Below, in pieces: positions 174 to 64,000 of a stretch of 64,000 nt of DNA (positions are counted from its first letter, which is position 1; each line of letters begins with the position of its first letter). Origin of the DNA: the human T2T-CHM13v2.0 reference genome, Homo sapiens; assembly GCF_009914755.1 (NCBI RefSeq), contig NC_060925.1. One strand, 5' to 3'. The translations under genes and the position numbers were made by a program. The notes beneath the pieces were generated by a model, which had not been told where the DNA came from, made no database searches, and saw only the letters and a list, made by a program, of their open reading frames with translations.

Positions 174-199
174 TACAAACAACACAAGGAAGTTACTGA

Positions 200-26000: not shown

Positions 26001-27683
26001 TGAATACACACAACACAAGGAAGTTACTGAGAATTCTTCTGTCTAGCAGAATAGGAAGAAATCCCGTTTCCAACGAAGGCCTCAAAGAGGTCTGAATATC
26101 CACTTGCAGACTTTACAAACAGAGTGTTTCCTAACTGCTCTATGAAAAGAAAAGTTAAACTTTGTGAGTTGAACGCACACATCAGAAAGGAGTTTATGAG
26201 AATCATTCTGTCTAGTCTTTATATGAAGATAGTTTCCTTTTCTACCATTGACCTCAAAGCGGCTGAAATCTCCACTTGCAAATTCCACAAAAAGAGTGTT
26301 TCAGGTCTGCTCTGCGTAAAGGATCGTTCAACTCTGTGAGTTGAATACACACAACACAAGGAAGTTACTGAGAATTATTCTGTCTAGCAGAATATGAAGA
26401 AATCCCGTTTCCAACGAAGGCCTCAAGGAGGTCTGAATATCCACTTGCAGAATTTACAAACAGAGTGTTTCCTAACTGCTCTATGAACAGAAAGGTTAAA
26501 CTCTGTGAGTTGAACGAACGCATCACAACGCAGTTTGTGGGAATGATTCTGTCTAGTTTTGAAACGAAGATATTTCCTTTTCTGCCATTGACCTTAAAGC
26601 GCTTGAAATCTACACTTGCAAATTGCACAAATAGAGTGTTTCAAATCTGCTCTAAGGGAACGTTCAACTCTGTGAGTTGAATGCACACAACACAAGGAAG
26701 TTACTGGGAATTCTTCTGTCTAGCCTTACATGAAAAAAACCCGTTTCCAACGAAGGCCTCTAAGTGGTCAAAATATCCACGTGCAGACTTTACAAACAGA
26801 GTGTTTCCAAACCGCTGAATGAAAAGAAAAGTTAAACTCTGAGAGTTGAACGCACACATCACGCAGCAGTTTCTGAGAATGATTCTGTCTAGTTTTTATA
26901 CGAAGATATTTCCTTTTCTGCCTTTGGCCCCAAAGCGCTTGAAATCTCCAATTGCAAATTCCACAAAAACAGTGTTTCAAATCTGCTCTCTCTAAATGAA
27001 AGTTCAACTCTGTCAGTTGAATACACACAACACAAGGAAGTTACTGAGAATTCTTCTGTCTAGCATAATATGAAGAAATCCCGTTTCCAACGAAGGCCTC
27101 AAAGGGGACTGAATATCCACTTGCAGACTTTATAAACAGAGTGTTTACTAACTGCTCTATGAAAAGAAAGGTTAAACTCTGTGAGTTGAACACACACATC
27201 ACTAAGGACTTTCTGAGAATCATTCTGTCTAGTTTTTCTACGAAGATATTTCCTTTTCTACTATTGACCTCAAAGCGGCTGAAATCTCCACTTGCAAATT
27301 CCACAAAAAGAGTGTTTCAAGTCTGCTCTGTGTAAAGGATCGTTCAACTCTGTGAGTTGAATACACACAACACAAGGAAGTTACTGAGAATTCTTCTGTC
27401 TAGCAGAATATGAAGAAATCCCGTTTCCAACGAAGGCCTCAAAGAGGTCTGAATATCCACTTGCAGACTTTACAAACAGAGTGTTTCCTAACTGCTCTAT
27501 GAACAGAAAGGTTAAACTCTGTGAGTTGAACGCACACATCACAAAGGAGTTTCTGAGAATCGTTCTGTCTAGTTTCTATAGGAAGATATTTCCTATTCTA
27601 CCATTGACCTCAAAGCGGCTGAAATCTCCACTTGCAAATTCCACAAAAAGAGTGTTTCAAGTCTGCTCTGTGTAAAGGATCGT

Positions 27684-41800: not shown

Positions 41801-44800
41801 AACACATCACAACGCAGTTTGTGGGAATGATTCTGTCTAGTTTTGAAACGAAGATATTTCCTTTTCTGCCGTTGACCTTAAAGAGCTTGAAAACTACACT
41901 TGCAAATTGCACAAATAGAGTGTTTCAAATCTGCTCTGTCTAAGGGAACGTTCAACTCTGTGAGTTGAATGCACACAACACAAGGAAGTTACTGGGAATT
42001 CTTCTGTCTAGCCTTACATGAAAAAAACCCGTTTCCAACGAAGGCCTCTAAGTGGTCAAAATTTCCACGTGCAGACTTTACAAACAGAGTGTTTCCAAAC
42101 CGCTGAATGAAAAGAAAAGTTAAACTCTGAGAGTTGAACGCACACATCACGCAGCAGTTTCTGAGAATGATTCTGTCTAGTTTTTATACGAAGGTATTTC
42201 CTTTTCTGCCTTTGGCCCCAAAGCGCTTGAAATCTCCACTTGCAAATTCCACAAAAACAGTGTTTCAAATCTGCTCTCTCTAAATGAAAGTTCAACTCTG
42301 TCAGTTGAATACACACAACACAAGGAAGTTACTGAGAATTCTTCTGTCTAGCATAATATGAAGAAATCCCGTTTCCAACGAAGGCCTCAAAGGGGTCTGA
42401 ATATCCACTTGCAGACTTTATAAACAGAGTGTTTACTAACTGCTCTATGAAAAGAAAGGTTAAACTCTGTGAGTTGAACACACACATCACAAACGAGTTT
42501 CTGAGAATCATTCTGTCTAGTTTTTCTACGAAGATATTTCCTTTTCTACTATTGACCTCAAAGCGGCTGAAATCTCCACTTGCAAATTCTACAAATAGAG
42601 TGTTTCAAGTCTGCTCTGTGTAAAGGATCGTTCAACTCTGTGAGTTGAATACACACAACACAAGGAAGTTACTGAGAATTCTTCTGTCTAGCAGAATAGG
42701 AAGAAATCCCGTTTCCAACGAAGGCCTCAAAGAGGTCTGAATATCCACTTGCAGACTTTACAAACAGAGTGTTTCCTAACTGCTCTATGAAAAGAAAGGT
42801 TAAACTCTGTGAGTTGAACGCACACATCACAAAGGAGTTTCTGAGAATCGTTCTGTCTAGTTTCTATAGGAAGATATTTCCTATTCTACCATTGACCTCA
42901 AAGCGGCTGAAATCTCCACTTGCAAATTCCACAAAAAGAATGTTTCAAGTCTGCTCTGTGTAAAGGATCGTTCAACTCTGTGAGTTGAATACACACAACA
43001 CAAGGAAGTTACTGAGAATTCTTCTGTCTAGCATAATATGAAGAAATCCCGTTTCCAACGAAGGCCTCAAAGAGGTCTGAATATCCACTTGCAGACTTTA
43101 CAAACAGAGTGTTTCCTAACTGCTCTATGAAAAGAAAAGTTACACTCTGTGAGTTGAACGCACACATCACAAAGGAGTTTCTGAGAATCATTCTGTCTAG
43201 TCTTTATACGAAGATATTTCCTTTTCTACCATTGACCTCAAAGCGGCTGAAATCTCCACTTGCAAATTCCACAAAAAGAGTGTTTCAAGTCTGCTCTGTG
43301 TAAAGGATCGTTCAACTCTGTGAGTTGAATACACACAACACAAGGAAGTTACTGAGAATTCTTCTGTCTAGCAGAATATGAAGAAATCCCGTTTCCAACG
43401 AAGGCCTCAAGGAGGTCTGAATATCCACTTGCAGACTTTACAAACAGAGTGTTTCCTAACTGCTCTATGAACAGAAAGGTTAAACTCTGTGAGTTGAACG
43501 AACACATCACAACGCAGTTTGTGAGAATGATTCTGTCTAGTTTTGAAACGAAGATATTTCCTTTTCTGCCGTTGACCTTAAAGCGCTTGAAATCTACACT
43601 TGCAAATTGCACAAATAGAGTGTTTCAAATCTGCTCTGTCTAAGGGAACGTTCAACTCTGTGAGTTGAATGCACACAACACAAGGAAGTTACTGGGAATT
43701 CTTCTGTCTAGCCTTACATGAAAAAAACCCGTTTCCAACGAAGGCCTCTAAGTGGTCAAAATATCCACGTGCAGACTTTACAAACAGAGTGTTTCCAAAC
43801 CGCTGAATGAAAAGAAAAGTTAAACTCTGAGAGTTGAACGCACACATCACGCAGCAGTTTCTGAGAATGATTCTGTCTAGTTTTTATACGAAGATATTTC
43901 CTTTTCTGCCTTTGGCCCCAAAGCGCTTGAAATCTCCACTTGCAAATTCCACAAAAACAGTGTTTCAAATCTGCTCTCTCTAAATGAAAGTTCAACTCTG
44001 TCAGTTGAATACACACAACACAAGGAAGTTACTGAGAATTCTTCTGTCTAGCATAATATGAAGAAATCCCGTTTCCAACGAAGGCCTCAAAGGGGTCTGA
44101 ATATCCACTTGCAGACTTTATAAACAGAGTATTTACTAACTGCTCTATGAAAAGAAAGGTTAAACTCTGTGAGTTGAACACACACATCACAAAGGAGTTT
44201 CTGAGAATCATTCTGTCTAGTTTTTCTACGAAGATATTTCCTTTTCTACTATTGACCTCAAAGCGGCTGAAATCTCCACTTGCAAATTCCACAAAAAGAG
44301 TGTTTCAAGTCTGCTCTGTGTAAAGGATCATTCAACTCTGTGAGTTGAATACCCACAACACAAGGAAGTTACTGAGAATTCTTCTGTCTAGCAGAATAGG
44401 AAGAAATCCCGTTTCCAACGAAGGCCTCAAAGAGGTCTGAATATCCACTTGCAGACTTTACAAACAGAGTGTTTCCTAACGGCTCTATGAAAAGAAAAGT
44501 TAAACTCTGTGAGTTGAACGCACACATCACAAAGGAGTTTCTGAGAATCGTTCTGTCTAGTTTCTATAGGAAGATATTTCCTATTCTACCATTGACCTCA
44601 AAGCGGCTGAAATCTCCACTTGCAAATTCCACAAAAAGAATGTTTCAAGTCTGCTCTGTGTAAAGGATCGTTCAACTCTGTGAGTTGAATACACACAACA
44701 CAAGGAAGTTACTGAGAATTCTTCTGTCTAGCATAATATGAAGAAATCCCGTTTCCAAAGAAGGCCTCAAAGAGGTCTGAATATCCACTTGCAGACTTTA

Positions 44801-47800
44801 CAAACAGAGTGTTTCCTAACTGCTCTATGAAAAGAAAGGTTAAACTCTGTGAGTTGAACGCACACATCACAAAGGAGTTTATGAGAATCATTCTGTCTAG
44901 TCTTTATATGAAGATAGTTTCCTTTTCTACCATTGACCTCAAAGCGGCTGAAATCTCCACTTGCAAATTCCACAAAAAGAGTGTTTCAAGTCTGCTCTGT
45001 GTAAAGGATCGTTCAACTCTGTGAGTTGAATACACACAACACAAGGAAGTTACTTAGAATTCTTCTGTCTAGCAGAATATGAAGAAATCCCGTTTCCAAC
45101 GAAGGCCACAAGATGTCAGAATATCCACTTACAGACTTTACAAACAGAGTGTTTCCTAACTGCTCTATGAACAGAAAGGTTAAACTCTGTGAGTTGAACG
45201 AACACATCACAACGCAGTTTGTGGGAATGATTCTGTCTAGTTTTAAAACGAAGATATTTCCTTTTCTGCCATTGACCTTAAAGCGCTTGAAATCTACACT
45301 TGCAAATTGCACAAATAGAGTGTTTCAAATCTGCTCTGTCTAAGGGAACGTTCAACTCTGTGAGTTGAATGCACACAACACAAGGAAGTTACTGGGAATT
45401 CTTCTGTCTAGCCTTACATGAAAAAAACCCGTTTCTAACGAAGGCCTCTAAGTGGTCAAAATTTCCACGTGCAGACTTTACAAACAGAGTGTTTCCAAAC
45501 CGCTGAATGAAAAGAAAAGTTAAACTCTGAGAGTTGAACGCACACATCACGCAGCAGTTTCTGAGAATGATTCTGTCTAGTTTTTATACGAAGATATTTC
45601 CTTTTCTGCCTTTGGCCCCAAAGCGCTTGAAATCTCCACTTGCAAATTCCACAAAACACTGTTTCAAATCTGCTCTCTCTAAATGATAGTTCAACTCTGT
45701 CAGTTGAATACACACAACACAAGGAAGTTACTGAGAATTCTTCTGTCTAGCATAATATGAAGAAATCCCGTTTCCAACGAAGGCCTCAAAGGGGTCTGAA
45801 TATCCACTTGCAGACTTTATAAACAGAGTGTTTACTAACTGCTCTATGAAAAGAAAGGTTAAACTCTGTGAGTTGAACACACACATCACAAAGGAGTTTC
45901 TGAGAATCATTCTGTCTAGTTTTTCTACGAAGATATTTCCTTTTCTACTATTGACCTCAAAGCGGCTGAAATCTCCACTTGCAAATTCCACAAAAAGAGT
46001 GTTTCAAGTCTGCTCTGTGTAAAGGATCGTTCAACTCTGTGAGTTGAATACACACAACACAAGGAAGTTACTGAGAATTCTTCTGTCTAGCAGAATATGA
46101 AGAAATCCCGTTTCCAACGAAGGCCTCAAAGAGGTCTGAATATCCACTTGCAGACTTTACAAACAGAGTGTTTCCTAACTGCTCTATGAAAAGAAAGGTT
46201 AAACTCTGTGAGTTGAACGCACACATCACAAAGGAGTTTCTGAGAATCATTCTGTCTAGTTTCTATAGGAAGATATTTCCTATTCTACCATTGACCTCAA
46301 AGCGGCTGAAATCTCCAGTTGCAAATTCCACAAAAAGAGTGTTTCAAGTCTGCTCTGTGTAAAGGATCGTTCAACTCTGTGAGTTGAATACACACAACAC
46401 AAGGAAGTTACTGAGAATTATTCTGTCTAGCAGAATATGAAGAAATCCCGTTTCCAACGAAGGCCTCAAGGAGGTCTGAATATCCACTTGCAGACTTTAC
46501 AAACAGAGTGTTTCCTAACTGCTCTATGAACAGAAAGGTTAAACTCTGTGAGTTGAACGAACACATCACAACGCAGTTTGTGGGAATGATTCTGTCTAGT
46601 TTTGAAACGAAGATATTTCCTTTTCTGTCATTGACCTTAAAGCGCTTGAAATCTACACTTGCAAATTGCACAAATAGAGTGTTTCAAATCTGCTCTGTCT
46701 AAGGGAACGTTCAACTCCGTGAGTTGAATGCACACAACACAAGGAAGTTACTGGGAATTCTTCTGTCTAGCCTTACATGAAAAAAACCCGTTTCCAACGA
46801 AGGCCTCTAAGTGGTCAAAATTTCCACGTGCAGACTTTACAAACAGAGTGTTTCCAAACCGCTGAATGAAAAGAAAAGTTAAACTCTGAGAGTTGAACGC
46901 ACACATCACGCAGCAGTTTCTGAGAATGATTATGTCTAGTTTTTATACGAAGATATTTCCTTTTCTGCCTTTGGCCCCAAAGCGCTTGAAATCTCCACTT
47001 GCAAATTCCACAAAAACAGTGTTTCAAATCTGCTCTCTCTAAATGATAGTTCAACTCTGTCAGTTGAATACACACAACACAAGGAAGTTACTGAGAATTC
47101 TTCTGTCTAGCATAATATGAAGAAATCCCGTTTCCAACGAAGGCCTCAAAGGGGTCTGAATATCCACTTGCAGACTTTATAAACAGAGTGTTTACTAACT
47201 GCTCTATGAAAAGAAAGGTTAAACTCTGTGAGTTGAACGCACACATCACAAAGGAGTTTCTGAGAATCATTCTGTCTAGTTTCTATAGGAAGATATTTCC
47301 TATTCTACCATTGACCTCAAAGCGGCTGAAATCTCCACTTGCAAATTCCACAAAAAGAGTGTTTCAAGTCTGCTCTGTGTAAAGGATCGTTCAACTCTGT
47401 GAGTTGAATACACACAACACAAGGAAGTTACTGAGAATTATTCTGTCTAGCAGAATATGAAGAAATCCCGTTTCCAACGAAGGCCTCAAGGAGGTCTGAA
47501 TATCCACTTGAAGACTTTACAAACAGAGTGTTTCCTAACTGCTCTATGAACAGAAAGGTTAAACTCTGTGAGTTGAACGAACACATCACAACGCAGTTTG
47601 TGGGAATGATTCTGTCGAGTTTTGAAACGAAGATATTTCCTTTTCTGCCATTGACCTTAAAGAGCTTGAAAACTACACTTGCAAATTGCACAAATAGAGT
47701 GTTTCAAATCTGCTCTGTCTAAGGGAACGTTCAACTCTGTGAGTTGAATGCACACAACACAAGGAAGTTACTGGGAATTCTTCTGTCTAGCCTTACATGA

Positions 47801-48750
47801 AAAAAACCCGTTTCCAACGAAGGCCTCTAAGTGGTCAAAATTTCCACGTGCAGACTTTACAAACAGAGTGTTTCCAAACCGCTGAATGAAAAGAAAAGTT
47901 AAACTCTGAGAGTTGAACGCAGACATCACGCAGCAGTTTCTGAGAATGATTCTGTCTAGTTTTTATACGAAGATATTTCCTTTTCTGCCTTTGGCCCCAA
48001 AGCGCTTGAAATCTCCACTTGCAAATTCCACAAAAACAGTGTTTCAAATCTGCTCTCTCTAAATGAAAGTTCAACTCTGTCAGTTGAATACACACAACAC
48101 AAGGAAGTTACTGAGAATTCTTCTGTCTAACATAATATGAAGAAAACCCGTTTCCAACGAAGGCCTCAAAGGGGTCTGAATATCCACTTGCAGACTTTAT
48201 AAACAGCGTGTTTACTAACTGCTCTATGAAAAGAAAGGTTAAACTCTGTGAGTTGAACACACACATCAGAAAGGAGTTTCTGAGAATCATTCTGTCTAGT
48301 TTTTCTACGAAGATATTTCCTTTTCTACTATTGACCTCAAAGCGGCTGAAATCTCCACTTGCAAATTCCACAAAAAGAGTGTTTCAAGTCTGCTCTGTGT
48401 AAAGGATCGTTCAACTATGTGAGTTGAATACACACAACACAAGGAAGTTACTGAGAATTCTTCTGTCTAGCAGAATATGAAGAAATCCCGTTTCCAACGA
48501 AGGCCTCAAAGAGGTCTGAATATCCACTTGCAGACTTTACAAACAGAGTGTTTCGTAACTGCTCTATGAAAAGAAAGGTTAAACTCTGTGAGTTGAACGC
48601 ACACATCACAAAGGAGTTTCTGAGAATCGTTCTGTCTAATTTCTATAGGAAGATATTTCCTATTCTACCATTGACCTCAAAGCGGCTGAAATCTCCACTT
48701 GCAAATTCCACAAAAAGAATGTTTCAAGTCTGCTCTGTGTAAAGGATCGT

Positions 48751-51700
48751 TCAACTCTGTGAGTTGAATACACACAACACAAGGAAGTTACTGAGAATTC
48801 TTCTGTCTAGCAGAATATGAAGAAATCCCGTTTCCAACGAAGGCCACAAGATGTCAGAATATCCACTTACAGACTTTACAAACAGAGTGTTTCCTAACTG
48901 CTCTATGAACAGAAAGGTTAAACTCTGTGAGTTGAACGAACACATCACAACGCAGTTTGTGGGAATGATTCTGTCTAGTTTTGAAACGAAGATATTTCCT
49001 TTTTGCCGTTGACCTTAAAGAGCTTGAAAACTACACTTGCAAATTGCACAAATAGAGTGTTTCAAATCTGCTCTGTCTAAGGGAACGTTCAACTCTGTGA
49101 GTTGAATGCACACAACACAAGGAAGTTACTGGGAATTCTTCTGTCTAGCCTTACATGAAAAAAACCCGTTTCCAACGAAGGCCTCTAAGTGGTCAAAATT
49201 TCCACGTGCAGACTTTACAAACAGAGTGTTTCCAAACCGCTGAATGAAAAGAAAAGTTAAACTCTGAGAGTTGAACGCACACATCACGCAGCAGTTTCTG
49301 AGAATGATTCTGTCTAGTTTTTATACGAAGATATTTCCTTTTCTACTATTGACCTCAAAGCGGCTGAAATCTCCACTTGCAAATTCTACAAATAGAGTGT
49401 TTCAAGTCTGCTCTGTGTAAAGGATCGTTCAACTCTGTGAGTTGAATACACACAACACAAGGAAGTTACTGAGAATTCTTCTGTCTAGCAGAATATGAAG
49501 AAATCCCGTTTCCAACGAAGGCCTCAAAGAGGTCTGAATATCCACTTGCAGACTTTACAAACAGAGTGTTTCCTAACTGCTCTATGAAAAGAAAGGTTAA
49601 ACTCTGTGAGTTGAACGCACACATCACAAAGGAGTTTCTGAGAATCGTTCTGTCTAGTTTCTATAGGAAGATATTTCCTATTCTACCATTGACCTCAAAG
49701 CGGCTGAAATCTCCACTTGCAAATTCCACAAAAAGAATGTTTCAAGTCTGCTCTGTGTAAAGGATCGTTCAACTCTGTGAGTTGAATACACACAACACAA
49801 GGAAGTTACTGAGAATTCTTCTGTCTAGCATAATATGAAGAAATCCCGTTTCCAACGAAGGCCTCAAAGAGGTCTGAATATCCACTTGCAGACTTTACAA
49901 ACAGAGTGTTTCCTAACTGCTCTATGAAAAGAAAAGTTAAACTCTGTGAGTTGAACGCACACATCACAAAGGAGTTTCTGAGAATCATTCTGTCTAGTCT
50001 TTATACGAAGATATTTCCTTTTCTACCATTGACCTCAAAGCGGCTGAAATCTCCACTTGCAAATTCCACAAAAAGAGTGTTTCAAGTCTGCTCTGTGTAA
50101 AGGATTGTTCAACTCTGTGAGTTGAATACACACAACACAAGGAAGTTACTGAGAATTCTTCTGTCTAGCAGAATATGAAGAAATCCCGTTTCCAACGAAG
50201 GCCTCAAGGAGGTCTGAATATCCACTTGCAGACTTTACAAAGAGAGTGTTTCCTAACAGCTCTATGAACAGAAAGGTTAAACTCTGTGAGTTGAACGCAC
50301 ACATCACAAAGGAGTTTCTGAGAATCATTCTGTCTAGTCTTTATACGAAGATATTTACTTTTCTACCATTGACCTCAAAGCGGCTGAAATCTCCACTTGC
50401 AAATTCCACAAAAAGAGTGTTTCAAGTCTGCTCTGTGTAAAGGATCATTCAACTCTGTGAGTTGAATAAACACAACACAAGGAAGTTACTGAGAATTCTT
50501 CTGTCTAGCAGAATATGAAGAAATCCAGTTTCCAACGAAGGCCTCAACGAGGTCTGAATATCCACTTGCAGACTTTACAAACAGAGTGTTTCCTAACTGC
50601 TCTATGAAAAGAAAGGTTAAACTCTGTGAGTTGAACACACACATCACAAAGGAGTTTCTGAGAATCATTCTGTCTAGTTTCTCTACGAAGATATTTCCTT
50701 TTCTACTATTGACCTCAAAGCGGCTGAAATCTCCACTTGCAAATTCCACAAAAAGAGTGTTTCAAGTCTGCTCTGTGTAAAGGATCGTTCAACTCTGTGA
50801 GTTGAATACACACAACACAAGGAAGTTACTGAGAATTCTTCTGTCTAGCAGAATATGAAGAAATCCCGTTTCCAACGAAGGCCTCAAAGAGGTCTGAATA
50901 TCCACTTGCAGACTTTACAAACAGAGTGTTTCCTAACTGCTCTATGAAAAGAAAGGTTAAACTCTGTGAGTTGAACGCACACATCACAAAGGAGTTTCTG
51001 AGAATCGTTCTGTCTAGTTTCTATAGGAAGATATTTCCTATTCTACCATTGACCTCAAAGCGGCTGAAATCTCCACTTGCAAATTCCACAAAAAGAATGT
51101 TTCAAGTCTGCTCTGTGTAAAGGATCGTTCAACTCTGTGAGTTGAATACACACAACACAAGGAAGTTACTGAGAATTCTTCTGTCTAGCAGAATATGAAG
51201 AAATCCCGTTTCCAACGAAGGCCACAAGATGTCAGAATATCCACTTACAGACTTTACAAACAGAGTGTTTCCTAACTGCTCTATGAACAGAAAGGTTAAA
51301 CTCTGTGAGTTGAACGAACACATCACAACGCAGTTTGTGGGAATGATTCTGTCTAGTTTTGAAATGAAGATATTTCCTTTTCTGCCGTTGACCTTAAAGA
51401 GCTTGAAAACTACACTTGCAAATTGCACAAATAGAGTGTTTCAAATCTGCTCTGTCTAAGGGAACGTTCAACTCTGTGAGTTGAATGCACACAACACAAG
51501 GAAGTTACTGGGAATTCTTCTGTCTAGCCTTACATGAAAAAAACCCGTTTCCAACGAAGGCCTCTAAGTGGTCAAAATTTCCACGTGCAGACTTTACAAA
51601 CAGAGTGTTTCCAAACCGCTGAATGAAAAGAAAAGTTAAACTCTGAGAGTTGAACGCACACATCACGCAGCAGTTTCTGAGAATGATTCTGTCTAGTTTT

Positions 51701-54700
51701 TATACGAAGATATTTCCTTTTCTGCCTTTGGCCCCAAAGCGCTTGAAATCTCCACTTGCAAATTCCACAAAAACAGTGTTTCAAATCTGCTCTCTCTAAA
51801 TGAAAGTTCAACTCTGTCAGTTGAATACACACAACACAAGGAAGTTACTGAGAATTCTTCTGTCTAGCAGAATATGAAGAAATCCCGTTTCCAACGAAGG
51901 CCTCAAAGGGGTCTGAATATCCACTTGCAGACTTTATAAACAGAGTGTTTACTAACTGCTCCATGAAAAGAAAGGTTAAACTCTGTGAGTTGAACACACA
52001 CATCACAAAGGAGTTTCTGAGAATCATTCTGTCTAGTTTTTCTACGAAGATATTTCCTTTTCTACTATTGACCTCAAAGCGGCTGAAATCTCCACTTGCA
52101 AATTCTACAAATAGAGTGTTTCAAGTCTGCTCTGTGTAAAGGATCGTTCAACTCTGTGAGTTGAATACAAAAAACACAAGGAAGTTACTGAGAATTCTTC
52201 TGTCTAGCAGAATATGAAGAAATCCCGTTTCCAACGAAGGCCTCAAAGAGGTCTGAATATCCACTTGCAGACGTTACAAACAGAGTGTTTCCTAACTGCT
52301 CTATGAAAAGAAAGGTTAAACTCTGTGAGTTGAACGCACACATCACAAAGGAGTTTCTGAGAATCGTTCTGTCTAGTTTCTATAGGAAGATATTTCCTAT
52401 TCTACCATTGACCTCAAAGCGGCTGAAATCTCCACTTGCAAATTCCACAAAAAGAATGTTTCAAGTCTGCTCTGTGTAAAGGATCGTTCAACTCTGTGAG
52501 TTGAATACACACAACACAAGGAAGTTACTGAGAATTCTTCTGTCTAGCATAATATAAAGAAATCCCGTTTCCAACGAAGGCCTCAAAGAGGTCTGAATAT
52601 CCACTTGCAGACTTTACAAACAGAGTGTTTCCTAACTGCTCTATGAAAAGAAAAGTTAAACTCTGTGAGTTGAACGCACACATCACAAAGGAGTTTCTGA
52701 GAATCATTCTGTCTAGTCTTTATACGAAGATATTTCCTTTTCTACAATTGACCTCAAAGCGGCTGAAATCTCCACTTGCAAATTCCACAAAAAGAGTGTT
52801 TCAAGTCTGCTCTGTGTAAAGGATTGTTCAACTCTGTGAGTTGAATACACACAACACAAGGAAGTTACTGAGAATTCTTCTGTCTAGCAGAATATGAAGA
52901 AATCCAGTTTCCAACGAAGGCCTCAACGAGGTCTGAATATCCACTTGCAGACTTTACAAACAGAGCGTTTCCTAACTGCTCTATGAAAAGAAAGGTTAAA
53001 CTCTGTGAGTTGAACACACACATCACAAAGGAGTTTCTGAGAATCATTCTGTCTAGTTTCTCTACGAAGATATTTCCTTTTCTACTATTGACCTCAAAGC
53101 GGCTGAAATCTCCACTTGCAAATTCCACAAAAAGAGTGTTTCAAGTCTGCTCTGTGTAAAGGATCGTTCAACTCTGTGAGTTGAATACACACAACACAAG
53201 GAAGTTACTGAGAATTCTTCTGTCTAGCAGAATATGAAGAAATCCCGTTTCCAACGAAGGCCTCAAAGAGGTCTGAATATCCACTTGCAGACTTTACAAA
53301 CAGAGTGTTTCCTAACTGCTCTATGAAAAGAAAGGTTAAACTCTGTGAGTTGAACGCACACATCACAAAGGAGTTTCTGAGAATCGTTCTGTCTAGTTTC
53401 TATAGGAAGATATTTCCTATTCTACCATTGACCTCAAAGCGGCTGAAATCTCCACTTGCAAATTCCACAAAAAGAATGTTTCAAGTCTGCTCTGTGTAAA
53501 GGATCGTTCAACTCTGTGAGTTGAATACACACAACACAAGGAAGTTACTGAGAATTCTTCTGTCTAGCAGAATATGAAGAAATCCCGTTTCCAACGAAGG
53601 CCACAAGATGTCAGAATATCCACTTACAGACTTTACAAACAGAGTGTTTCCTAACTGCTCTATGAACAGAAAGGTTAAACTCTGTGAGTTGAACGAACAC
53701 ATCACAACGCAGTTTGTGGGAATGATTCTGTCTAGTTTTGAAATGAAGATATTTCCTTTTCTGCCGTTGACCTTAAAGAGCTTGAAAACTACACTTGCAA
53801 ATTGCACAAATAGAGTGTTTCAAATCTGCTCTGTCTAAGGGAACGTTCAACTCTGTGAGTTGAATGCACACAACACAAGGAAGTTACTGGGAATTCTTCT
53901 GTCTAGCCTTACATGAAAAAAACCCGTTTCCAACGAAGGCCTCTAAGTGGTCAAAATTTCCACGTGCAGACTTTACAAACAGAGTGTTTCCAAACCGCTG
54001 AATGAAAAGAAAAGTTAAACTCTGAGAGTTGAACGCACACATCACGCAGCAGTTTCTGAGAATGATTCTGTCTAGTTTTTATACGAAGATATTTCCTTTT
54101 CTGCCTTTGGCCCCAAAGCGCTTGAAATCTCCACTTGCAAATTCCACAAAAACAGTGTTTCAAATCTGCTCTCTCTAAATGAAAGTTCAACTCTGTCAGT
54201 TGAATACACACAACACAAGGAAGTTACTGAGAATTCTTCTGTCTAGCAGAATATGAAGAAATCCCGTTTCCAACGAAGGCCTCAAAGGGGTCTGAATATC
54301 CACTTGCAGACTTTATAAACAGAGTGTTTACTAACTGCTCCATGAAAAGAAAGGTTAAACTCTGTGAGTTGAACACACACATCACAAAGGAGTTTCTGAG
54401 AATCATTCTGTCTAGTTTTTCTACGAAGATATTTCCTTTTCTACTATTGACCTCAAAGCGGCTGAAATCTCCACTTGCAAATTCTACAAATAGAGTGTTT
54501 CAAGTCTGCTCTGTGTAAAGGATCGTTCAACTCTGTGAGTTGAATACAAAAAACACAAGGAAGTTACTGAGAATTCTTCTGTCTAGCAGAATATGAAGAA
54601 ATCCCGTTTCCAACGAAGGCCTCAAAGAGGTCTGAATATCCACTTGCAGACGTTACAAACAGAGTGTTTCCTAACTGCTCTATGAAAAGAATGGTTAAAC

Positions 54701-57700
54701 TCTGTGAGTTCAACGCACACATCACAAAGGAGTTTCTGAGAATCGTTCTGTCTAGTTTCTATAGGAAGATATTTCCTATTCTACCATTGACCTCAAAGCG
54801 GCTGAAATCTCCACTTGCAAATTCCACAAAAAGAATGTTTCAAGTCTGCTCTGTGTAAAGGATCGTTCAACTCTGTGAGTTGAATACACACAACACAAGG
54901 AAGTTACTGAGAATTCTTCTGTCTAGCATAATATAAAGAAATCCCGTTTCCAACGAAGGCCTCAAAGAGGTCTGAATATCCACTTGCAGACTTTACAAAC
55001 AGAGTGTTTCCTAACTGCTCTATGAAAAGAAAAGTTAAACTCTGTGAGTTGAACGCACACATCACAAAGGAGTTTCTGAGAATCATTCTGTCTAGTCTTT
55101 ATACGAAGATATTTCCTTTTCTACAATTGACCTCAAAGCGGCTGAAATCTCCACTTGCAAATTCCACAAAAAGAGTGTTTCAAGTCTGCTCTGTGTAAAG
55201 GATCGTTCAACTCTGTGAGTTGAATACACACAACACAAGGAAGTTACTGAGAATTCTTCTGTCTAGCAGAATATGAAGAAATCCCGTTTCCAACGAAGGC
55301 CTCAAGGAGGTCTGAATATCCACTTGCAGACTTTACAAACAGAGTGTTTCCTAACAGCTCTATGAACAGAAAGGTTAAACTCTGTGAGTTGAACGCACAC
55401 ATCACAAAGGAGTTTCTGAGAATCATTCTGTCTAGTCTTTATACGAAGATATTTACTTTTCTACCATTGACCTCAAAGCGGCTGAAATCTCTACTTGCAA
55501 ATTCCACAAAAAGAGTGTTTCAAGTCTGCTCTGTGTAAAGGATCATTCAACTCTGTGAGTTGAATAAACACAACACAAGGAAGTTACTGAGAATTCTTCT
55601 GTCTAGCAGAATATGAAGAAATCCCGTTTCCAACGAAGGCCTCAAAGGGGTCTGAATATCCACTTGCAGACTTTACAAACAGAGTGTTTCCTAACTGCTC
55701 TATGAAAAGAAAGGTTAAACTCTGTGAGTTGAACACACACATCACAAAGGAGTTTCTGAGAATCATTCTGTCTAGTTTTTCTACGAAGATATTTCCTTTT
55801 CTACTATTGACCTCAAAGCGGCTGAAATCTCCACTTGCAAATTCCACAAAAAGAGTGTTTCAAGTCTGCTCTGTGTAAAGGATCGTTCAACTCTGTGAGT
55901 TGAATACACACAACACAAGGAAGTTACTGAGAATTCTTCTGTCTAGCAGAATATGAAGAAATCCCGTTTCCAACGAAGGCCTCAAAGAGGTCTGAATATC
56001 CACTTGCAGACTTTACAAACAGAGTGTTTCCTAACTGCTCTATGAAAAGAAAGGTTAAACTCTGTGAGTTGAACGCACACATCACAAAGGAGTTTCTGAG
56101 AATCGTTCTGTCTAGTTTCTATAGGAAGATATTTCCTATTCTACCATTGACCTCAAAGCGGCTGAAATCTCCACTTGCAAATTCCACAAAAAGAATGTTT
56201 CAAGTCTGCTCTGTGTAAAGGATCGTTCAACTCTGTGAGTTGAATACACACAACACAAGGAAGTTACTGAGAATTCTTCCGTCTAGCAGAATATGAAGAA
56301 ATCCCGTTTCCAACGAAGGCCACAAGATGTCAGAATATCCACTTACAGACTTTACAAACAGAGTTTTTCCTAACTGCTCTATGAACTGAAAGGTTAAACT
56401 CTGTGAGTTGAACGAACACATCACAACGCAGTTTGTGGGAATGATTCTGTCTAGTTTTGAAACGAAGATATTTCCTTTTCTGCCGTTGACCTTAAAGAGC
56501 TTGAAAACTACACTTGCAAATTGCACAAATAGAGTGTTTCAAATCTGCTCTGTCTAAGGGAACGTTCAACTCTGTGAGTTGAATGCACACAACACAAGGA
56601 AGTTACTGGGAATTCTTCTGTCTAGCCTTACATGAAAAAAACCCGTTTCCAATGAAGGCCTCTAAGTGGTCAAATTTCCACGTGCAGACTTTACAAACAG
56701 AGTGTTTCCAAACCGCTGAATGAAAAGAAAAGTTAAACTCTGAGAGTTGAACGCACACATCACGCAGCAGTTTCTGAGAATGATTCTGTCTAGTTTTTAT
56801 ACGAAGATATTTCCTTTTCTGCCTTTGGCCCCAAAGCGCTTGAAATCTCCACTTGCAAATTCCAAAAAAACAGTGTTTCAAATCTGCTCTCTCTAAATGA
56901 AAGTTCAACTCTGTCAGTTGAATACACACAACACAAGGAAGTTACTGAGAATTCTTCTGTCTAGCATAATATGAAGAAATCCCGTTTCCAATGAAGGCCT
57001 CAAAGGGGTCTGAATATCCACTTGCAGACTTTATAAACAGAGTGTTTCCTAACTGCTCTATGAAAAGAAAGGTTAAACTCTGTGAGTTGAACGCACACAT
57101 CACAAAGGAGTTTTTGAGAATCGTTCTGTCTAGTTTCTATAGGAAGATATTTCCTATTCTACCATTGACCTCAAAGCGGCTGAAATCTCCACTTGCAAAT
57201 TCCACAAAAAGAATGTTTCAAGTCTGCTCTGTGTAAAGGATCGTTCAACTCTGTGAGTTGAATACACACAACACAAGGAAGTTACTGAGAATTCTTCTGT
57301 CTAGCATAATATGAAGAAATCCCGTTTCCAACGAAGGCCTCAAAGAGGTCTGAATATCCACTTGCAGACTTTACAAACAGAGTGTTTCCTAACTGCTCTA
57401 TGAAAAGAAAAGTTAAACTCTGTGAGTTGAACGCACACATCACAAAGGAGTTTCTGAGAATCATTCTGTCTAGTCTTTATACGAAGATATTTCCTTTTCT
57501 ACCATTGACCTCAAAGCGGCTGAAATCTCCACTTGCAAATTCCACAAAAAGAGTGTTTCAAGTCTGCTCTGTGTAAAGGATCGTTCAACTCTGTGAGTTG
57601 AATACACACAACACAAGGAAGTTACTGAGAATTCTTCTGTCTAGCAGAATATGAAGAAATCCCGTTTCCAACGAAGTCCTCAAGGAGGTCTGAATATCCA

Positions 57701-60690
57701 CTTGCAGACTTTACAAACAGAGTGTTTCCTAACAGCTCTATGAACAGAAAGGTTAAACTCTGTGAGTTGAACGCACACATCACAAAGGAGTTTCTGAGAA
57801 TCATTCTGTCTAGTCTTTATACGAAGATATTTACTTTTCTACCATTGACCTCAAAGCGGCTGAAATCTCCACTTGCAAATTCCACAAAAAGAGTGTTTCA
57901 AGTCTGCTCTGTGAAAAGGATCATTCAACTCTGTGAGTTGAATAAACACAACACAAGGAAGTTACTGAGAATTCTTCTGTCTAGCAGAATATGAAGAAAT
58001 CCCGTTTCCAACGAAGGCCTCAACGAGGTCTGAATATCCACTTGCAGACTTTACAAACAGAGTGTTTCCTAACTGCTCTATGAAAAGAAAGGTTAAACTC
58101 TGTGAGTTGAACACACACATCACAAAGGAGTTTCTGAGAATCATTCTGTCTAGTTTTTCTACGAAGATATTTCCTTTTCTACTATTGACCTCAAAGCGGC
58201 TGAAATCTCCACTTGCAAATTCCACAAAAAGAGTGTTTCAAGTCTGCTCTGTGTAAAGGATCGTTCAACTCTGTGAGTTGAATACACACAACACAAGGAA
58301 TTTACTGAGAATTCTTCTGTCTAGCAGAATATGTAGAAATCCCGTTTCCAACGAAGGCCTCAAAGAGGTCTGAATATCCACTTGCAGACTTTACAAACAG
58401 AGTGTTTCCTAACTGCTCTATGAAAAGAAAGGTTAAACTCTGTGAGTTGAACGCACACATCACAAAGGAGTTTCTGAGAATCGTTCTGTCTAGTTTCTAT
58501 AGGAACATATTTCCTATTCTACCATTGACCTCAAAGCGGCTGAAATCTCCACTTGCAAATTCCACAAAAAGAATGTTTCAAGTCTGCTCTGTGTAAAGGA
58601 TCGTTCAACTCTGTGAGTTGAATACACACAACACAAGGAAGTTACTGAGAATTCTTCTGTCTAGCAGAATATGAAGAAATCCCGTTTCCAACGAAGGCCA
58701 CAAGATGTCAGAATATCCACTTACAGACTTTACAAACAGAGTGTTTCCTAACTGCTCTATGAACAGAAAGGTTAAACTCTGTGAGTTGAACGAACACATC
58801 ACAACGCAGTTTGTGGGAATGATTCTGTCTAGTTTTGAAACGAAGATATTTCCTTTTCTGCCGTTGACCTTAAAGAGCTTGAAAACTACACTTGCAAGTT
58901 GCGCAAATAGAGTGTTTCAAATCTGCTCTGTCTAAGGGAACGTTCAACTCTGTGAGTTGAATGCACACAACACAAGGAAGTTACTGGGAATTCTTCTGTC
59001 TAGCCTTACATGAAAAAAACCCGTTTCCAACGAAGGCCTCTAAGTGGTCAAAATTTCCACGTGCAGACTTTACAAACAGAGTGTTTCCAAACCGCTGAAT
59101 GAAAAGAAAAGTTAAACTCTGAGAGTTGAACGCACACATCACGCAGCAGTTTCTGAGAATGATTCTGTCTAGTTTTTATACGAAGATATTTCCTTTTCTG
59201 CCTTTGGCCCCAAAGCGCTTGAAATCTCCACTTGCAAATTCCACAAAAACAGTGTTTCAAATCTGCTCTCTCTAAATGAAAGTTCAACTCTGTCAGTTGA
59301 ATACACACAACACAAGGAAGTTACTGAGAATTCTTCTGTCTAGCATAATATGAAGAAATCCCGTTTCCAACGAAGGCCTCAAAGGGGTCTGAATATCCAC
59401 TTGCAGACTTTATAAACAGAGTGTTTACTAACTGCTCCATGAAAAGAAAGGTTAAACTCTGTGAGTTGAACACACACATCACAAAGGAGTTTCTGAGAAT
59501 CATTCTGTCTAGTTTTTCTACGAAGATATTTCCTTTTCTACTATTGACCTCAAAGCGGCTGAAATCTCCACTTGCAAATTCTACAAATAGAGTGTTTCAA
59601 GTCTGCTCTGTGTAAAGGATCGTTCAACTCTGTGAGTTGAATACACACAACACAAGGAAGTTACTGAGAATTCTTCTGTCTAGCAGAATATGAAGAAATC
59701 CCGTTTCCAACGAAGGCCTCAAAGAGGTCTGAATATCCACTTGCAGACTTTACAAACAGAGTGTTTCCTAACTGCTCTATGAAAAGAAAGGTTAAACTCT
59801 GTGAGTTGAACGCACACATCACAAAGGAGTTTCTGAGAATCGTTCTGTCTAGTTTCTATAGGAAGATATTTCCTATTCTACTATTGACCTCAAAGCGGCT
59901 GAAATCTCCACTTGCAAATTCCACAAAAAGACTGTTTCAAGTCTGCTCTGTGTAAAGGATCGTTCAACTCTGTGAGTTGAATACACACAACACAAGGAAG
60001 TTACTGAGAATACTTCTGTCTAGCATAATATGAAGAAATCCCGTTTCCAACGAAGGCCTCAAAGAGGTCTGAATATCCACTTGCAGACTTTACAAACAGA
60101 GTGTTTCCTAACTGCTCTATGAAAAGAAAAGTTAAACTCTGTGAGTTGAACGTACACATCACAAAGGAGTTTCTGAGAATCATTCTGTCTAGTCTTTATA
60201 CGAAGATATTTCCTTTTCTACCATTGACCTCAAAGCGGCTGAAATCTCCACTTGCAAATTCCACAAAAAGAGTGTTTCAAGTCTGCTCTGTGTAAAGGAT
60301 CGTTCAACTCTGTGAGTTGAATACACACAACACAAGGAAGTTACTGAGAATTCTTCTGTCTAGCAGAATATGAAGAAATCCCTTTTCCAACGAAGGCCTC
60401 AAGGAGGTCTGAATATCCACTTGCAGACTTTACAAACAGAGTGTTTCCTAACAGCTCTATGAACAGAAAGGTTAAACTCTGTGAGTTGAACGCACACATC
60501 ACAAAGGAGTTTCTGAGAATCATTCTGTCTAGTCTTTATACGAAGATATTTACTTTTCTACCATTGACCTTAAAGCGGCTGAAATCTCCACTTGCAAATT
60601 CCACAAAAAGAGTGTTTCAAGTCTGCTCTGTGTAAAGCATCGTTCAACTCTGTGAGTTGAATACACACAACACAAGGAAGTTACAGAGAA
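48751..60690 (-). repeat. Local expansion of five related 14-16-monomer units, ending at the inversion
   Basis: X-dimer ORF markers at 48751, 51129, 53508, 56227 and 58605 (spacings 2378, 2379, 2719, 2378). The marker CCTAACAGCTC is shared near 50252, 55350, 57728 and 60447. Confidence 0.8.
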
Positions 60691-60731
60691 TTCCTTGTGT
60701 TGTGTGTATTCAACTCACAGAGTTGAACGAT
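60639..60731. other. Inversion breakpoint: 41-bp perfect inverted repeat with 11-nt spacer
   Basis: ATCGTTCAACTCTGTGAGTTGAATACACACAACACAAGGAA (60639-60679), spacer GTTACAGAGAA (60680-60690), then the exact reverse complement (60691-60731). TTC at 60691-60693 fits both orientations. Confidence 0.95.
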
Positions 60732-63700
60732 CCTTTACAGAGAGCAGACTTGAAACACTCTTTTTGTGGAATTTGCAAGTGGAGATTTCAGCCGCTTTGA
60801 GGTCTATGGTAGAAAAGGAAACTATCTTCGTATAAAGACTAGACAGAATGATTCTCAGAAAATCCTTTGTGATGTGTGCGTTCAACTCACAGAGTTTAAC
60901 TTTTCTTTTCATAGAGCAGTTAGGAAACACTCTGTTTGTAAAGTCTGCAAGTGGATATTCAGACCTCTTTGAGGCCTTCGTTGGAAACGGGATTTCTTCA
61001 TATTCTGCTAGACAGAAGAATTCTCAGTAACTTCCTTGTGTTGTGTGTATTCAACTCACAGAGTTGAACGATCCTTTACACAGAGCAGACTTGAAACACT
61101 CTTTTTGTGGAATTTGCAAGTGGAGATTTCAGCCGCTTTGAGGTCAATAGTAGAAAAGGAAATATCTTCGTAGAAAAACTAGACAGAATGATTCTCAGAA
61201 ACTCCTTTGTGATGTGTGTGTTCAACTCACAGAGTTTAACCTTTCTTTTCATAGAGCAGTTAGTAAACACTCTGTTTATAAAGTCTGCAAGTGGATATTC
61301 AGACCCCTTTGAGGTCTTCGTTGGAAACGGGATTTCTTCATATTATGCTAGACAGAAGAATTCTCAGCAACTTCCTTGTGTTGTGTGTATTCAACTGACA
61401 GAGTTGAACTTTCATTTAGAGAGAGCAGATTTGAAACACTGTTTTTGTGGAATTTGCAAGTGGAGATTTCAAGCGCTTTGGGGCCAAAGGCAGAAAAGGA
61501 AATATCTTCGTATAAAAACTAGACAGAATCATTCTCAGAAACTGCTGCGTGATGTGTGCGTTCAACTCTCAGAGTTTAACTTTTCTTTTCATTCAGCGGT
61601 TTGGAAACACTCTGTTTCTAAAGTCTGCACGCGGATATTTTGACCACTTAGAGGCCTTCGTTGGAAACGGGTTTTTTTCATGTAAGGCTAGACAGAAGAA
61701 TTCCCAGTAACTTCCTTGTGTTGTGTGCATTCAACTCACAGAGTTGAACGTTCCCTTAGACAGAGCAGATTTGAAACACTCTATTTGTGCAATTTGCAAG
61801 TGTAGATTTCAAGCGCTTTAAGGTCAATGGCAGAAAAGGAAATATCTTCGTTTCAAAACTAGACAGAATCATTCCCACAAACTGCGTTGTGATGTGTTCG
61901 TTCAACTCACAGAGTTTAACCTTTCTGTACATAGAGCAGTTAGGAAACACTCTGTTTGTAAAGTCTGTAAGTGGATATTCTGACATCTTGTGGCCTTCGT
62001 TGGAAACGGGATTTCTTCATATTCTGCTAGACAGAAGAATTCTCAGTAACTTCCTTGTGTAGTGTGTATTCAACTCACAGAGTTGAACGATCCTTTACAC
62101 AGAGCAGACTTGAAACACTCTTTTTGTGGAATTTGCAAGTGGAGATTTCAGCCGCTTTGAGGTCAATGGTAGAAAAGGAAATATCTTCGTATAAAGACTA
62201 GACAGAATGATTCTCAGAAACTCCTTTGTGATGTGTGCGTTCAACTCACAGAGTTTAACCTTTCTTTTCATAGAGCAGTTAGGAAACACTCTGTTTGTAA
62301 AGTCTGCAAGTGGATATTGAGACCTCTTTGAGGCCTTCGTTGGAAACGGGATTTCTTCATATTCTGTTACACAGAAGAATTCTCAGTAACTTCCTTGTGT
62401 TGTGTGTATTCAACTCACAGAGTTGAACGATCCTTTACACAGAGCAGACTTGAAACACTCTTTTTGTAGAATTTGCAAGTGGAGATTTCAGCCGCTTTGA
62501 GGTCAATAGTGGAAAAGGAAATATCTTCGTAGAAAAACTAGACAGAATGATTCTCAGAAACTCCTTTGTGATGTGTGTGTTCAACTCACAGAGTTTAACC
62601 TTTCTTTTCATAGAGCAGTTAGTAAACACTCTGTTTGTAAAGTCTGAAAGTGGATATTCAGACCCCTTTGAGGCCTTCGTTGGAAAAGGGATTTCTTCAT
62701 ATTATGCTAGACAGAATAATTCTCAGTAACTTCCTTGTGTTGTGTGTATTCAACTCACAGAGTTGAACGATCCTTTACAGAGAGCAGACTTGAAACACTC
62801 TTTTTGTGGAATTTGCAAGTGGAGATTTCAGCCGCTTTGAGGTCAATGGTAGAATAGGAAATATCTTCCTATAGAAACTAGACAGAATCATTCTCATAAA
62901 CTCCTTTGTGATGTGTGCGTTCAACTCACAGAGTTTAACCTTTCTTTTCATAGAGCAGTTAGGAAACACTCTGTTTGTAAAGTCTGCAAGTGGATATTCA
63001 GACCCCTTTGAGGCCTTCGTTGGAAACGGGATTTCTTCATATTCTGCTAGACAGAAGAATTCTCAGTAACTTCCTTGTGTTGTGTGTATTCAACTGACAG
63101 AGTTGAACTTTCATTTAGAGAGAGCAGATTTGAAACACTGTTTTTGTGGAATTTGCAAGTGGAGATTTCAAGCGCTTTGGGGCCAAAGGCAGAAAAGGAA
63201 ATATCTTCGTATAAAAACTAGACAGAATCATTCTCAGAAACTGCTGCGTGATGTGTGCGTTCAACTCTCAGAGTTTAGCTTTTCTTTTCATTCAGCGGTT
63301 TGGAAACACTCTGTTTGTAAAGTCTGCACGTGGATATTTTGACCACTTAGAGGCCTTCGTTGGAAACGGGTTTTTTGCATGTAAGGCTAGACAGAAGAAT
63401 TCCCAGTAACTTCCTTGTGTTGTGTGCATTCCACTCACAGAGTTGAACGTTCCTTTAGACAGAGCAGATTTGAAACACTCTATTTGTGCAATTTGCAAGT
63501 GTAGATTTCAAGCGCTTTAAGGTCAATGGCAGAAAAGGAAATATCTTCGTTTCAAAACTAGACAGAATCATTCCCACAAACTGCGTTGTGATGTGTTCGT
63601 TCAACTCGCAGAGTTTAACCTTTCTGTTCATAGAGCAGTTAGGAAACACTCTGTTTGTAAAGTCTGTAAGTGGATATTCTGACATTTTGTGGCCTTCGTT

Positions 63701-64000
63701 GGAAATGGGATTTCTTCATATTCTCCTATACAGAAGAATTCTCAGTAACTTCCTTGTGTTGTGTGTATTCAACTAACAGAGTTGAACGATCCTTTACACA
63801 GAGCAGACTTGAAACACTCTTTTTGTGGAATTTGCAAGTGGAGATTTCAGCCGCTTTGAGGTCAATGGTAGAAAAGGAAACTATGTTCGTATAAAGACTA
63901 GACAGAATGATTCTCAGAAACTCCTTTGTGATGTGTGCGTTCAACTCACAGAGTTTAACTTTTCTTTTCATAGAGCAGTTAGGAAACACTCTGTTTGTAA
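60691..64000 (+). repeat. Alpha-satellite HOR array, same family, inverted orientation (right arm); CENP-B boxes on the plus strand
   Basis: From 60691 the sequence is the reverse complement of the left-arm repeat, with CTTCGTTGGAAACGGGA at 60976-60992 and about every 340 bp after. The repeated ORF translations switch strand at this point. Confidence 0.97.
60976..60992 (+). promoter_or_regulatory. CENP-B box (first in the inverted arm)
   Basis: CTTCGTTGGAAACGGGA read directly on the plus strand. Confidence 0.95.

What the first reader, a model, noticed from the sequence alone, without database searches (positions are those of the whole stretch)
60671..60700. Breakpoint is almost perfectly in phase: palindrome centre with 11-nt loop and TTC microhomology in an EcoRI site
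Seen: both arms break within about 11-14 bp of the same position of the 340-bp dimer, which gives a multi-kb quasi-palindrome with only an 11-nt spacer. The left arm runs ...GAGAATTC, the right arm begins TTCCTTGTG, and they share TTC (60691-60693). A T>A change (TTACAGAG vs consensus TTACTGAG, 60685) lies within the loop. Inference: two random breaks would rarely match phase this closely. This suggests a hairpin, template-switch or microhomology-mediated origin, or a phase-specific fragile site. The structure could extrude a cruciform.
Basis: partly seen in the sequence, partly recalled or inferred. Interest (0 to 1): 0.7.

Follow-up and report, generated by a model that had tools for sequence, protein, structure and literature searches.

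The report
Palindromic scar at centromere 1 inversion
This is one end of a known, common 1.7-Mb inversion inside the chromosome 1 centromere repeat; the join forms a near-palindrome with an 11-base loop that likely records how the break was repaired, while the other end shows no such symmetry.

Summary
The sequence description is right: 41-bp perfect arms, an 11-nt loop (60680-60690), shared TTC, and T>A at 60685. This is the q-side junction of the published 1.73-Mb D1Z7 inversion, reported as identical in 40 haplotypes. The inference is overstated. A spacer of 11 or less has a 6.8% chance per junction (13% for either of two). The reciprocal junction (chr1:124,130,517) is about 69 bp out of phase with 1-bp microhomology. 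Of 42 other alpha-satellite strand switches, 7 lie within 11 bp of phase (5.6 expected). The arms are not copies of each other beyond 41 bp. Three post-hoc clues point to a repair scar. The loop abuts the axis of the dimer's only 8-bp palindrome (AGAATTCT). The T>A creates an exact 9-mer found 44 bp into the right arm (best of 33 possible substitutions). The left dimer lacks two markers of its subtype inside the stem (2 of 30 background). Best reading (0.4): a join at AGAATTCT made a perfect palindrome that was then centre-cut and repaired by polymerase-theta-type joining. A phase-specific fragile site is not supported.

The parts
1..60693 (-). Inverted segment of the D1Z7 alpha-satellite array (340-bp dimers, reverse to the rest of the array); forms the left arm
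   Evidence: one orientation from window 1 to 60693, and at every place sampled back to chr1:124,130,517
60639..60679 (-). Inner left arm, 41 bp perfectly complementary to 60691-60731; lacks two markers (window 60664 and 60642) that its dimer subtype normally carries
60680..60690 (.). 11-nt loop (dimer phases 13 to 3, in left-arm orientation)
60685..60685 (+). T>A change in the loop; makes loop bases 60681-60689 identical to 60735-60743
60687..60693 (.). Seven of the eight bases of AGAATTCT, the dimer's only 8-bp perfect palindrome (contains the EcoRI site 60688-60693); its axis lies between 60690 and 60691, at the loop's right edge
60691..60693 (.). TTC microhomology, assignable to either arm
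60691..60731 (+). Inner right arm (41-bp perfect stem)
60735..60743 (+). Candidate template for the loop patch; this 9-mer is present in 77 of 506 dimers
60691..64000 (+). Non-inverted q-side flank of D1Z7; shares rare variants with the far end of the inverted segment, not with the mirror arm

Best explanation
This is the q-side junction of the known 1.73-Mb inversion in the chromosome 1 alpha-satellite array D1Z7, and it likely formed in two steps: two broken ends were likely joined at the dimer's only 8-bp self-complementary word, giving a perfect palindrome that would then have been cut near its centre and re-joined with loss of 11 bp from one side. Shown: the identity and size of the inversion; that the two junctions are not reciprocal (sequence was lost or gained, modulo 340, at both breaks); that the arms come from dimers about 1.7 Mb apart; that the loop is exactly what remains if 11 bp are removed from the right of the AGAATTCT axis, between two TTC repeats; and that the T>A matches a 9-mer in the right arm. 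Inferred: (1) two double-strand breaks and resection leave two tails of the same strand polarity, which can pair only at inverted microhomologies; (2) pairing at AGAATTCT gives a zero-spacer palindrome; (3) cruciform or hairpin formation, cleavage, and polymerase-theta-type repair with a short templated patch and a final 3-bp TTC alignment; (4) heteroduplex in the extruded stem overwrites left-arm markers. The product is likely a selectively neutral, fairly stable scar, not a functional element.
For: Only 7 inverted microhomologies of 8 bp or more exist in the dimer; 2 of the 7 give a spacer of 11 or less, against 6.9% of all junctions. The loop edge coincides with the single 8-bp axis (chance about 2.4%; about 7% for any of the three palindromes of 6 bp or more). 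Of 33 possible loop substitutions the observed one has the longest flank match within 60 and 100 bp, and the second longest within 170 bp. It is 1 of 1-2 that right-flank segments with 3-bp overlaps can rebuild, and 1 of 4 when any strand or flank is allowed. A rare variant in 11 nt is expected about 1-2% of the time. All five nearest dimers of the left unit carry one or both of two markers inside the stem region, and the left unit has neither; background 2 of 30 and 2 of 24. Mouse perfect palindromes are revised mostly by small central deletions (review PMC8701086, passages). Templated insertions within 50 bp define polymerase-theta joining (PMC7165422, passages).
Against: All three clues were found post hoc, and each is only p about 0.02-0.12. 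No precursor or alternative centre was seen; all 40 published carrier haplotypes are said to share one junction, which a one-step event explains more simply. The template lies 44-52 bp from the right-arm start, beyond the typical 30 bp. The T>A allele exists in 10 other D1Z7 positions, and the other two alleles at that site occur 13 and 4 times on chr1, so ordinary mutation or conversion can make it. The matching anomaly I suspected in the right dimer did not hold up in the nearest-neighbour test. A 41-bp perfect stem is unremarkable here: 224 of 506 dimers match the right arm over that stretch. Other switches show no significant in-phase excess.
Confidence: 0.4

Rival explanations
1. One-step, multi-round polymerase-theta joining: the left end (ending at 60684) primed on the right end three times, with 4-, 3- and 3-bp overlaps. 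No perfect palindrome ever existed, and the close phase of the two ends is chance.
For: The whole loop can be rebuilt without mismatch from two right-flank segments; one identical junction in all carriers; multi-round templated insertions are described.
Against: Leaves the phase match (about 7%) and the missing left-arm markers unexplained. It needs right-flank sequence upstream of phase 14 that I inferred from the dimer majority; the first template would be about 60 nt from the end.
Confidence: 0.22
2. Plain microhomology join at TTC between two random breaks; the phase match, the axis match and the T>A are unrelated coincidences in a fast-mutating array.
For: Phase chance 6.8-13%; microhomology of 3 bp or more arises in 6.5% of random pairs; 7 of 42 other switches within 11 bp against 5.6 expected; the reciprocal junction is an ordinary 1-bp join; T>A exists elsewhere; D1Z7 has the highest reported array mutation rate (PMC12822586).
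Against: Needs four modest coincidences at once (phase, axis, best-templated substitution, missing markers).
Confidence: 0.18
3. Snap-back (fold-back) plus homology capture: the left 3' end folded on itself through 3 bp, copied under 42 bp of its own arm, and this new sequence annealed to a homologous dimer at the far break. The phase match then follows by necessity.
For: Explains the phase with no coincidence; the loop is in left-arm orientation, as required; short fold-back insertions and homology-mediated resolution are described in yeast (PMC11724301; PMC7467729); one clear fold-back-like copy exists at another alpha locus (L044).
Against: A 3-bp stem is below the 4-bp minimum seen in yeast. 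T>A lies in old, not newly made, strand. If the left dimer was typical of its subtype, its two markers should have been copied into the right arm, and they are in neither. Copying beyond 41 bp is excluded.
Confidence: 0.15
4. A phase-specific fragile site at the EcoRI region of the dimer (for example linker DNA near the CENP-B box) breaks repeatedly, so junctions fall in phase.
For: Two of four ends lie within 17 bp of the EcoRI site, about 26 bp from the CENP-B box.
Against: The other two ends lie at phases 80 and 149; other junctions scatter over the monomer; single ancestral origin.
Confidence: 0.03
5. Assembly or sequencing artefact (a fold-back read).
For: Palindromic junctions are a known long-read artefact (own knowledge).
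Against: The arms differ at 11 sites in the first dimer; a matching second junction exists; the same junction is reported in 40 assemblies, and junction k-mers in 1,649 of 1,660 carriers.
Confidence: 0.01

Closest known systems
Polymorphic D1Z7 active-array inversion (bioRxiv 10.1101/2021.07.12.452052; junctions in bioRxiv 10.1101/2025.07.26.666712, Extended Data Fig. 4a legend)
   Same: Same event. Span 1,728,173 bp against the published 1.7 Mb. The published piece lengths (92+77 bp q-side, 158+56 bp p-side) all fit my four phases with one monomer boundary near phase 92 (my arithmetic).
   Different: The passages I saw do not mention the near-palindrome, the 11-nt loop, the palindromic 8-mer, the microhomologies or a mechanism; figures and supplements were not visible.
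Centre-break revision of long palindromes in mouse (as summarised in review PMC8701086; the primary papers were not held)
   Same: Small deletion that breaks central symmetry and leaves a more stable quasi-palindrome.
   Different: Here the precursor is inferred, the arms are 96.5% rather than 100% identical, and the site is a natural centromere array.
Polymerase-theta-mediated end joining with templated insertion (PMC7165422)
   Same: 3-4 bp microhomologies and a 5-nt net patch repeated in the flank.
   Different: The template is 44-52 bp away (typical under 30); it joins ends 1.7 Mb apart in inverted orientation; a single substitution explains the same bases.
Fold-back inversion / inverted duplication (PMC7467729, PMC11724301)
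   Same: Short loop between inverted arms, with short microhomology closing it.
   Different: The arms are not copies beyond 41 bp; 3-bp stem; part of a two-junction inversion.
Yeast Alu quasi-palindromes with 5-12 bp spacers (PMC8053094, PMC10164571)
   Same: Similar spacer (11) and arm identity (96.5%); such repeats still raise rearrangement rates in yeast (94% identity: about 15-fold below perfect arms).
   Different: No instability is evident in people: intact in all 40 haplotypes. Spacers of 9 or more escape fork pausing and Mre11 attack in yeast.

Membership tests
Known D1Z7 inversion, q-side junction | Strand switch inside D1Z7 with a partner switch about 1.7 Mb proximal | tested here: met
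   four motif scans found no other switch between the two
Known D1Z7 inversion, q-side junction | 92-bp inverted plus 77-bp forward monomer piece (q side); 158 plus 56 bp (p side) | tested here: met
   phases fit the lengths with one monomer boundary (inferred, not read from their annotation)
Known D1Z7 inversion, q-side junction | Base-identical junction in other carriers, T>A included | not testable with these tools
   only one human assembly is held; the paper's junction sequences are not in its text
Balanced reciprocal inversion | Junction phases reciprocal, with no loss or gain | tested here: not met
   ends at phases 80 | 0-3 and 149 | 14-17
Fold-back inversion | Short loop between inverted arms | tested here: met
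   11 nt
Fold-back inversion | Priming stem of 4 bp or more | tested here: not met
   3 bp against a minimum of 4 bp in yeast
Fold-back inversion | One arm is a copy of the other | tested here: not met
   11 differences in the first dimer, 40 of 178 left-side dimers are closer; rare-variant sharing 38 per 1000 pairs with the far end of the segment against 8 with the mirror arm. A copy under 42 bp cannot be excluded.
Polymerase-theta end-joining scar | Microhomology of 2 bp or more at the join | tested here: met
   TTC
Polymerase-theta end-joining scar | Templated insertion of 5 bp or more from within 50 bp | tested here: inconclusive
   9-mer match, 5 nt net, 44-52 bp away; rank 1 of 33; also explicable as one substitution
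Polymerase-theta end-joining scar | Dependence on POLQ | not testable with these tools
   historical germline event
Centre-break-revised palindrome | Small deletion that touches the symmetry axis of a possible perfect palindrome | tested here: met
   11 bp, one-sided, starting at the AGAATTCT axis
Centre-break-revised palindrome | Precursor or sibling revision products | not testable with these tools
   needs population haplotypes; the literature reports one junction in 40
Centre-break-revised palindrome | Marker exchange between arms near the centre | tested here: inconclusive
   left dimer lacks 2 of 2 predicted markers, background 2 of 30; right dimer not anomalous
Recurrently breaking palindrome (PATRR type) | Recurrent breaks or deletions at the centre | not testable with these tools
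   no population data here; the literature shows the q-side junction in all 40 haplotypes and the one deletion on the non-palindromic p side
Recurrently breaking palindrome (PATRR type) | Extremely AT-rich centre (threshold recalled, not from a call) | tested here: not met
   loop 36% GC, first 20 bp of arm 35% GC

The most novel reading that the evidence does not exclude
About a fifth to a quarter of human chromosomes 1 carry, inside the active centromere array, the fossil of a cruciform that extruded and was cut in the germ line. The residual 11-nt-spaced palindrome still forms structure under replication stress and biases where D1Z7 breaks in somatic whole-arm rearrangements of carrier haplotypes.
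Probability: 0.12. Interest if true: 0.65.

Novelty: new member of a known kind. Interest (0 to 1): 0.33.

Why it matters
The inversion is common (55 haplotypes at 20.3%; 93 of 385; about a quarter), and how inversions arise in arrays that are otherwise single-orientation is unexplained in the passages read. If the two-step reading holds, it gives a general rule: same-polarity satellite ends can pair only at inverted microhomologies, so palindromic words seed near-palindromic junctions, and only centre-revised ones survive. The junction is also a natural, genotypable test site for cruciform formation in centromeric chromatin, with non-carriers as controls. If it is chance, it is a marker k-mer already in use.

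Tried and rejected
Long fold-back copy: rejected. Reciprocal symmetry at the partner junction: rejected. T>A as unique to the junction: rejected genome-wide; the 13 other carriers of it that I read (of 24 on chr1 and chr19) are other dimer subtypes, 11-44 differences away. Loss of markers in the right dimer: looked strong by context (8 of 8) but was not supported by nearest neighbours, so it was dropped. Fold-back signature at other near-phase switches: only L044 stood out (1-2% of same-phase windows); 14 others were not convincing. k-mer Jaccard between flanks was weakly informative; left-flank continuity is not shown by rare variants. L041 and L067 were motif hits without a strand switch. 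Rfam: 0 matches in 57000-64000. The three unmasked gaps are ordinary satellite. The journal version of the T2T centromere paper and two primary mouse palindrome papers could not be read, so those claims rest on the preprint and a review. Preprint supplements and all figures were not seen, and may describe the junction's symmetry.

Full report
Observation. The window is D1Z7-type alpha satellite in one orientation from 1 to 60693 and in the other from 60691 to the end. The left arm ends at 60679, an 11-nt loop follows, and the right arm begins at 60691. TTC at 60691-60693 fits both orientations and the EcoRI site survives. The stem is perfect for 41 bp, 96.5% over each of the first two dimers, then 87-97%. 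T>A at 60685 is in 1 of 179 left-side dimers.

Identity. Sampling the assembly placed a second switch between chr1:124,100,700 and 124,200,000, and then at 124,130,517. The span is 1,728,173 bp. This is the 1.7-Mb inversion in the active chr1 array described in bioRxiv 10.1101/2021.07.12.452052 (passages; 11 of 24 haplotypes). Later preprints give about a quarter of individuals (PMC12822586, passages), 20.3% (10.64898/2026.07.22.740206, passages and section 6), and 93 of 385 haplotypes in a single lineage (PMC13684623, passages). bioRxiv 10.1101/2025.07.26.666712 (passages; figures and supplements not seen) reports identical junctions in 40 haplotypes, with pieces of 92+77 bp on the q side and 158+56 bp on the p side. 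These fit my four phases with one monomer boundary near phase 92. It reports one p-side deletion and none on the q side. 10.1101/2025.06.15.659631 (passages) counts 15 inversion events in 32 assemblies without junction detail. A search for D1Z7 + inversion + junction + palindrom returned 0 papers; searches listed no title on the junction's symmetry. Subscription papers and preprint supplements were not searched.

Anatomy of the event. With phase 0 at the EcoRI G, the left flank ends at phase 80, the segment starts at 0-3, the segment ends at 149, and the right flank starts at 14-17. The proximal junction is thus about 69 bp out of phase with 1 bp of microhomology, and the two junctions are not reciprocal: each break lost or gained sequence modulo 340. 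The arms are not mirror copies. The first dimers differ at 11 sites and 40 of 178 left-side dimers are closer to the right one. Rare variants are shared between the right flank and the far end of the segment (38 per 1000 dimer pairs) much more than between the arms (8 per 1000). The same test does not show continuity for the left flank and the segment start (3 per 1000).

Is the phase match more than chance? A spacer of 11 or less has probability 23/340 = 6.8%, or 13% for either of two junctions. As a control I scanned the assembly for conserved alpha motifs in opposed orientation (3, 31, 44, 30 and 31 forward matches). I collapsed overlapping hits and segmental-duplicate copies by eye, dropped non-alpha hits, read the rest and phased them against a 172-column monomer profile. 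Dropped after reading: two loci with no switch (L041, L067), two with more than 100 bp of foreign DNA between the arms (L087, L096), and seven duplicates (L049, L052, L054, L056, L059, L072, L076). Of the 42 remaining junctions, excluding this one, 7 lie within 11 bp of monomer phase (5.6 expected, p 0.33), 11 within 14 (7.1, p 0.08) and 13 within 17 (8.5, p 0.07); KS p 0.61. The set is incomplete, some junctions are two ends of one event, and the phasing is loose (it gave 19 for this junction). At most there is a mild excess. A phase-specific fragile site is not supported.

Clues to mechanism, all post hoc. (a) AGAATTCT is the only 8-bp perfect palindrome in the dimer, and one of 7 inverted microhomologies of 8 bp or more. 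Two resected ends that join head to head expose tails of the same polarity, which can pair only at such words (inference). The observed junction equals a zero-spacer join at this word, less 11 bp on the right, starting at the axis and bounded by TTC repeats. Chance of touching this axis is about 2.4%, or 7% for any palindrome of 6 bp or more. (b) The T>A makes 60681-60689 identical to 60735-60743, a 9-mer carried by only 77 of 506 dimers. Of 33 possible loop substitutions it ranks first within 60 and 100 bp and second within 170 bp; 1-2 of 33 can be rebuilt from the right flank with 3-bp overlaps, and 4 of 33 from any strand. Singleton variants occur at 0.0006-0.0016 per bp near the breaks. 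Against this, the allele exists at 10 other D1Z7 positions, the ten read being other subtypes, and the other alleles at the site are about as frequent. (c) The left junction dimer lacks both markers that its nearest neighbours carry inside the stem; background 2 of 30. The mirror-image suspicion for the right dimer failed.

Mechanism. One route covers all three clues: a join at the palindromic word, extrusion and cleavage at the centre, then polymerase-theta-type repair with a short patch and a final TTC alignment (0.40). A review reports that a perfect 15.4-kb mouse palindrome was rearranged in about 35% of offspring, and that in cells 93% of 118 rearrangements were deletions, mostly small and central (PMC8701086, passages). 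Templated insertions are typically within 30 bp and defined within 50 bp (PMC7165422, passages). Rivals are one-step multi-round joining (0.22), plain coincidence (0.18), snap-back with homology capture (0.15; PMC7467729 and PMC11724301, passages), a fragile site (0.03) and artefact (0.01). The final sequence alone cannot separate them.

Present-day structure. The centre folds into a long hairpin in silico, which any inverted repeat does. In yeast, spacers of 9 bp or more cut breaks by about 80% and escape fork pausing and Mre11 attack (PMC8053094, passages), and 94% identity lowers rearrangements about 15-fold without abolishing them (PMC10164571, passages). A 12-bp-spaced Alu pair did stall forks in primate cells (review PMC7999016, passages). 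Human alpha satellite is otherwise reported as depleted of dyads (PMC5889037, passages). The q-side junction is intact in all 40 published haplotypes, so strong germline fragility is unlikely; somatic fragility is untested.

Verdict. A real, already catalogued junction whose near-palindromic geometry and repair clues I did not find in print. The phase match alone is weak. The mechanistic reading is plausible and testable with existing pangenome data. Interest 0.33.

Noticed in passing
L044:1860-2040 (chr2:95,002,560-95,002,740): A 133-bp inverted copy of the adjacent alpha satellite (97% mirror identity, 20-nt insert at the centre) sits at the edge of what looks like a LINE-1 (label recalled): a clear short fold-back-type duplication.
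   Followed up: partly
L058 (chr5:46,667,7xx) and L046 (chr5:46,616,8xx): Two opposed switches 51 kb apart with phases 85/81 and 80/56: possibly one inversion with both breaks near phase and short duplications; L058 has a 26-bp perfect stem with a 4-nt loop.
   Followed up: partly
L064 (chr10:39,491,9xx) and L092 (chr5:50,464,76x): Both switches fall at the intrinsic short dyad of the alpha monomer (phases 41-49); L064 also has a short tandem re-copy at the join.
   Followed up: partly
L080 (chr10:39,459,37x) and L064: Opposed switches 32 kb apart, each near phase (21 and 8) but at different phases, so not reciprocal; would fit two fold-back-type joins of an inverted duplication.
   Followed up: no
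L048, L049, L052, L054, L056, L076: One alpha strand-switch junction (phases 68/164) recurs on chr7, 13, 14 and 20, and by printed sequence on 15, 21 and 22, as expected of segmental duplication.
   Followed up: no
L057 (chr1:126,300,50x): The q end of D1Z7 abuts older alpha satellite in opposite orientation directly (phases 106/161).
   Followed up: no
window 60379-60395: The left junction dimer has no intact CENP-B box (motif recalled); the nearest intact boxes start at 60040 and 60977.
   Followed up: no
window 16865-17199, 18221-18556, 26378-26713, 37930-38265, 40307-40642: Five dimers of 335-336 bp with 4-5 bp deletions; 61 of 179 left-side dimers are of the two divergent types.
   Followed up: no
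L063, L071, L079: Short internal inverted pieces of 57, 63 and 240 bp inside diverged alpha satellite.
   Followed up: no
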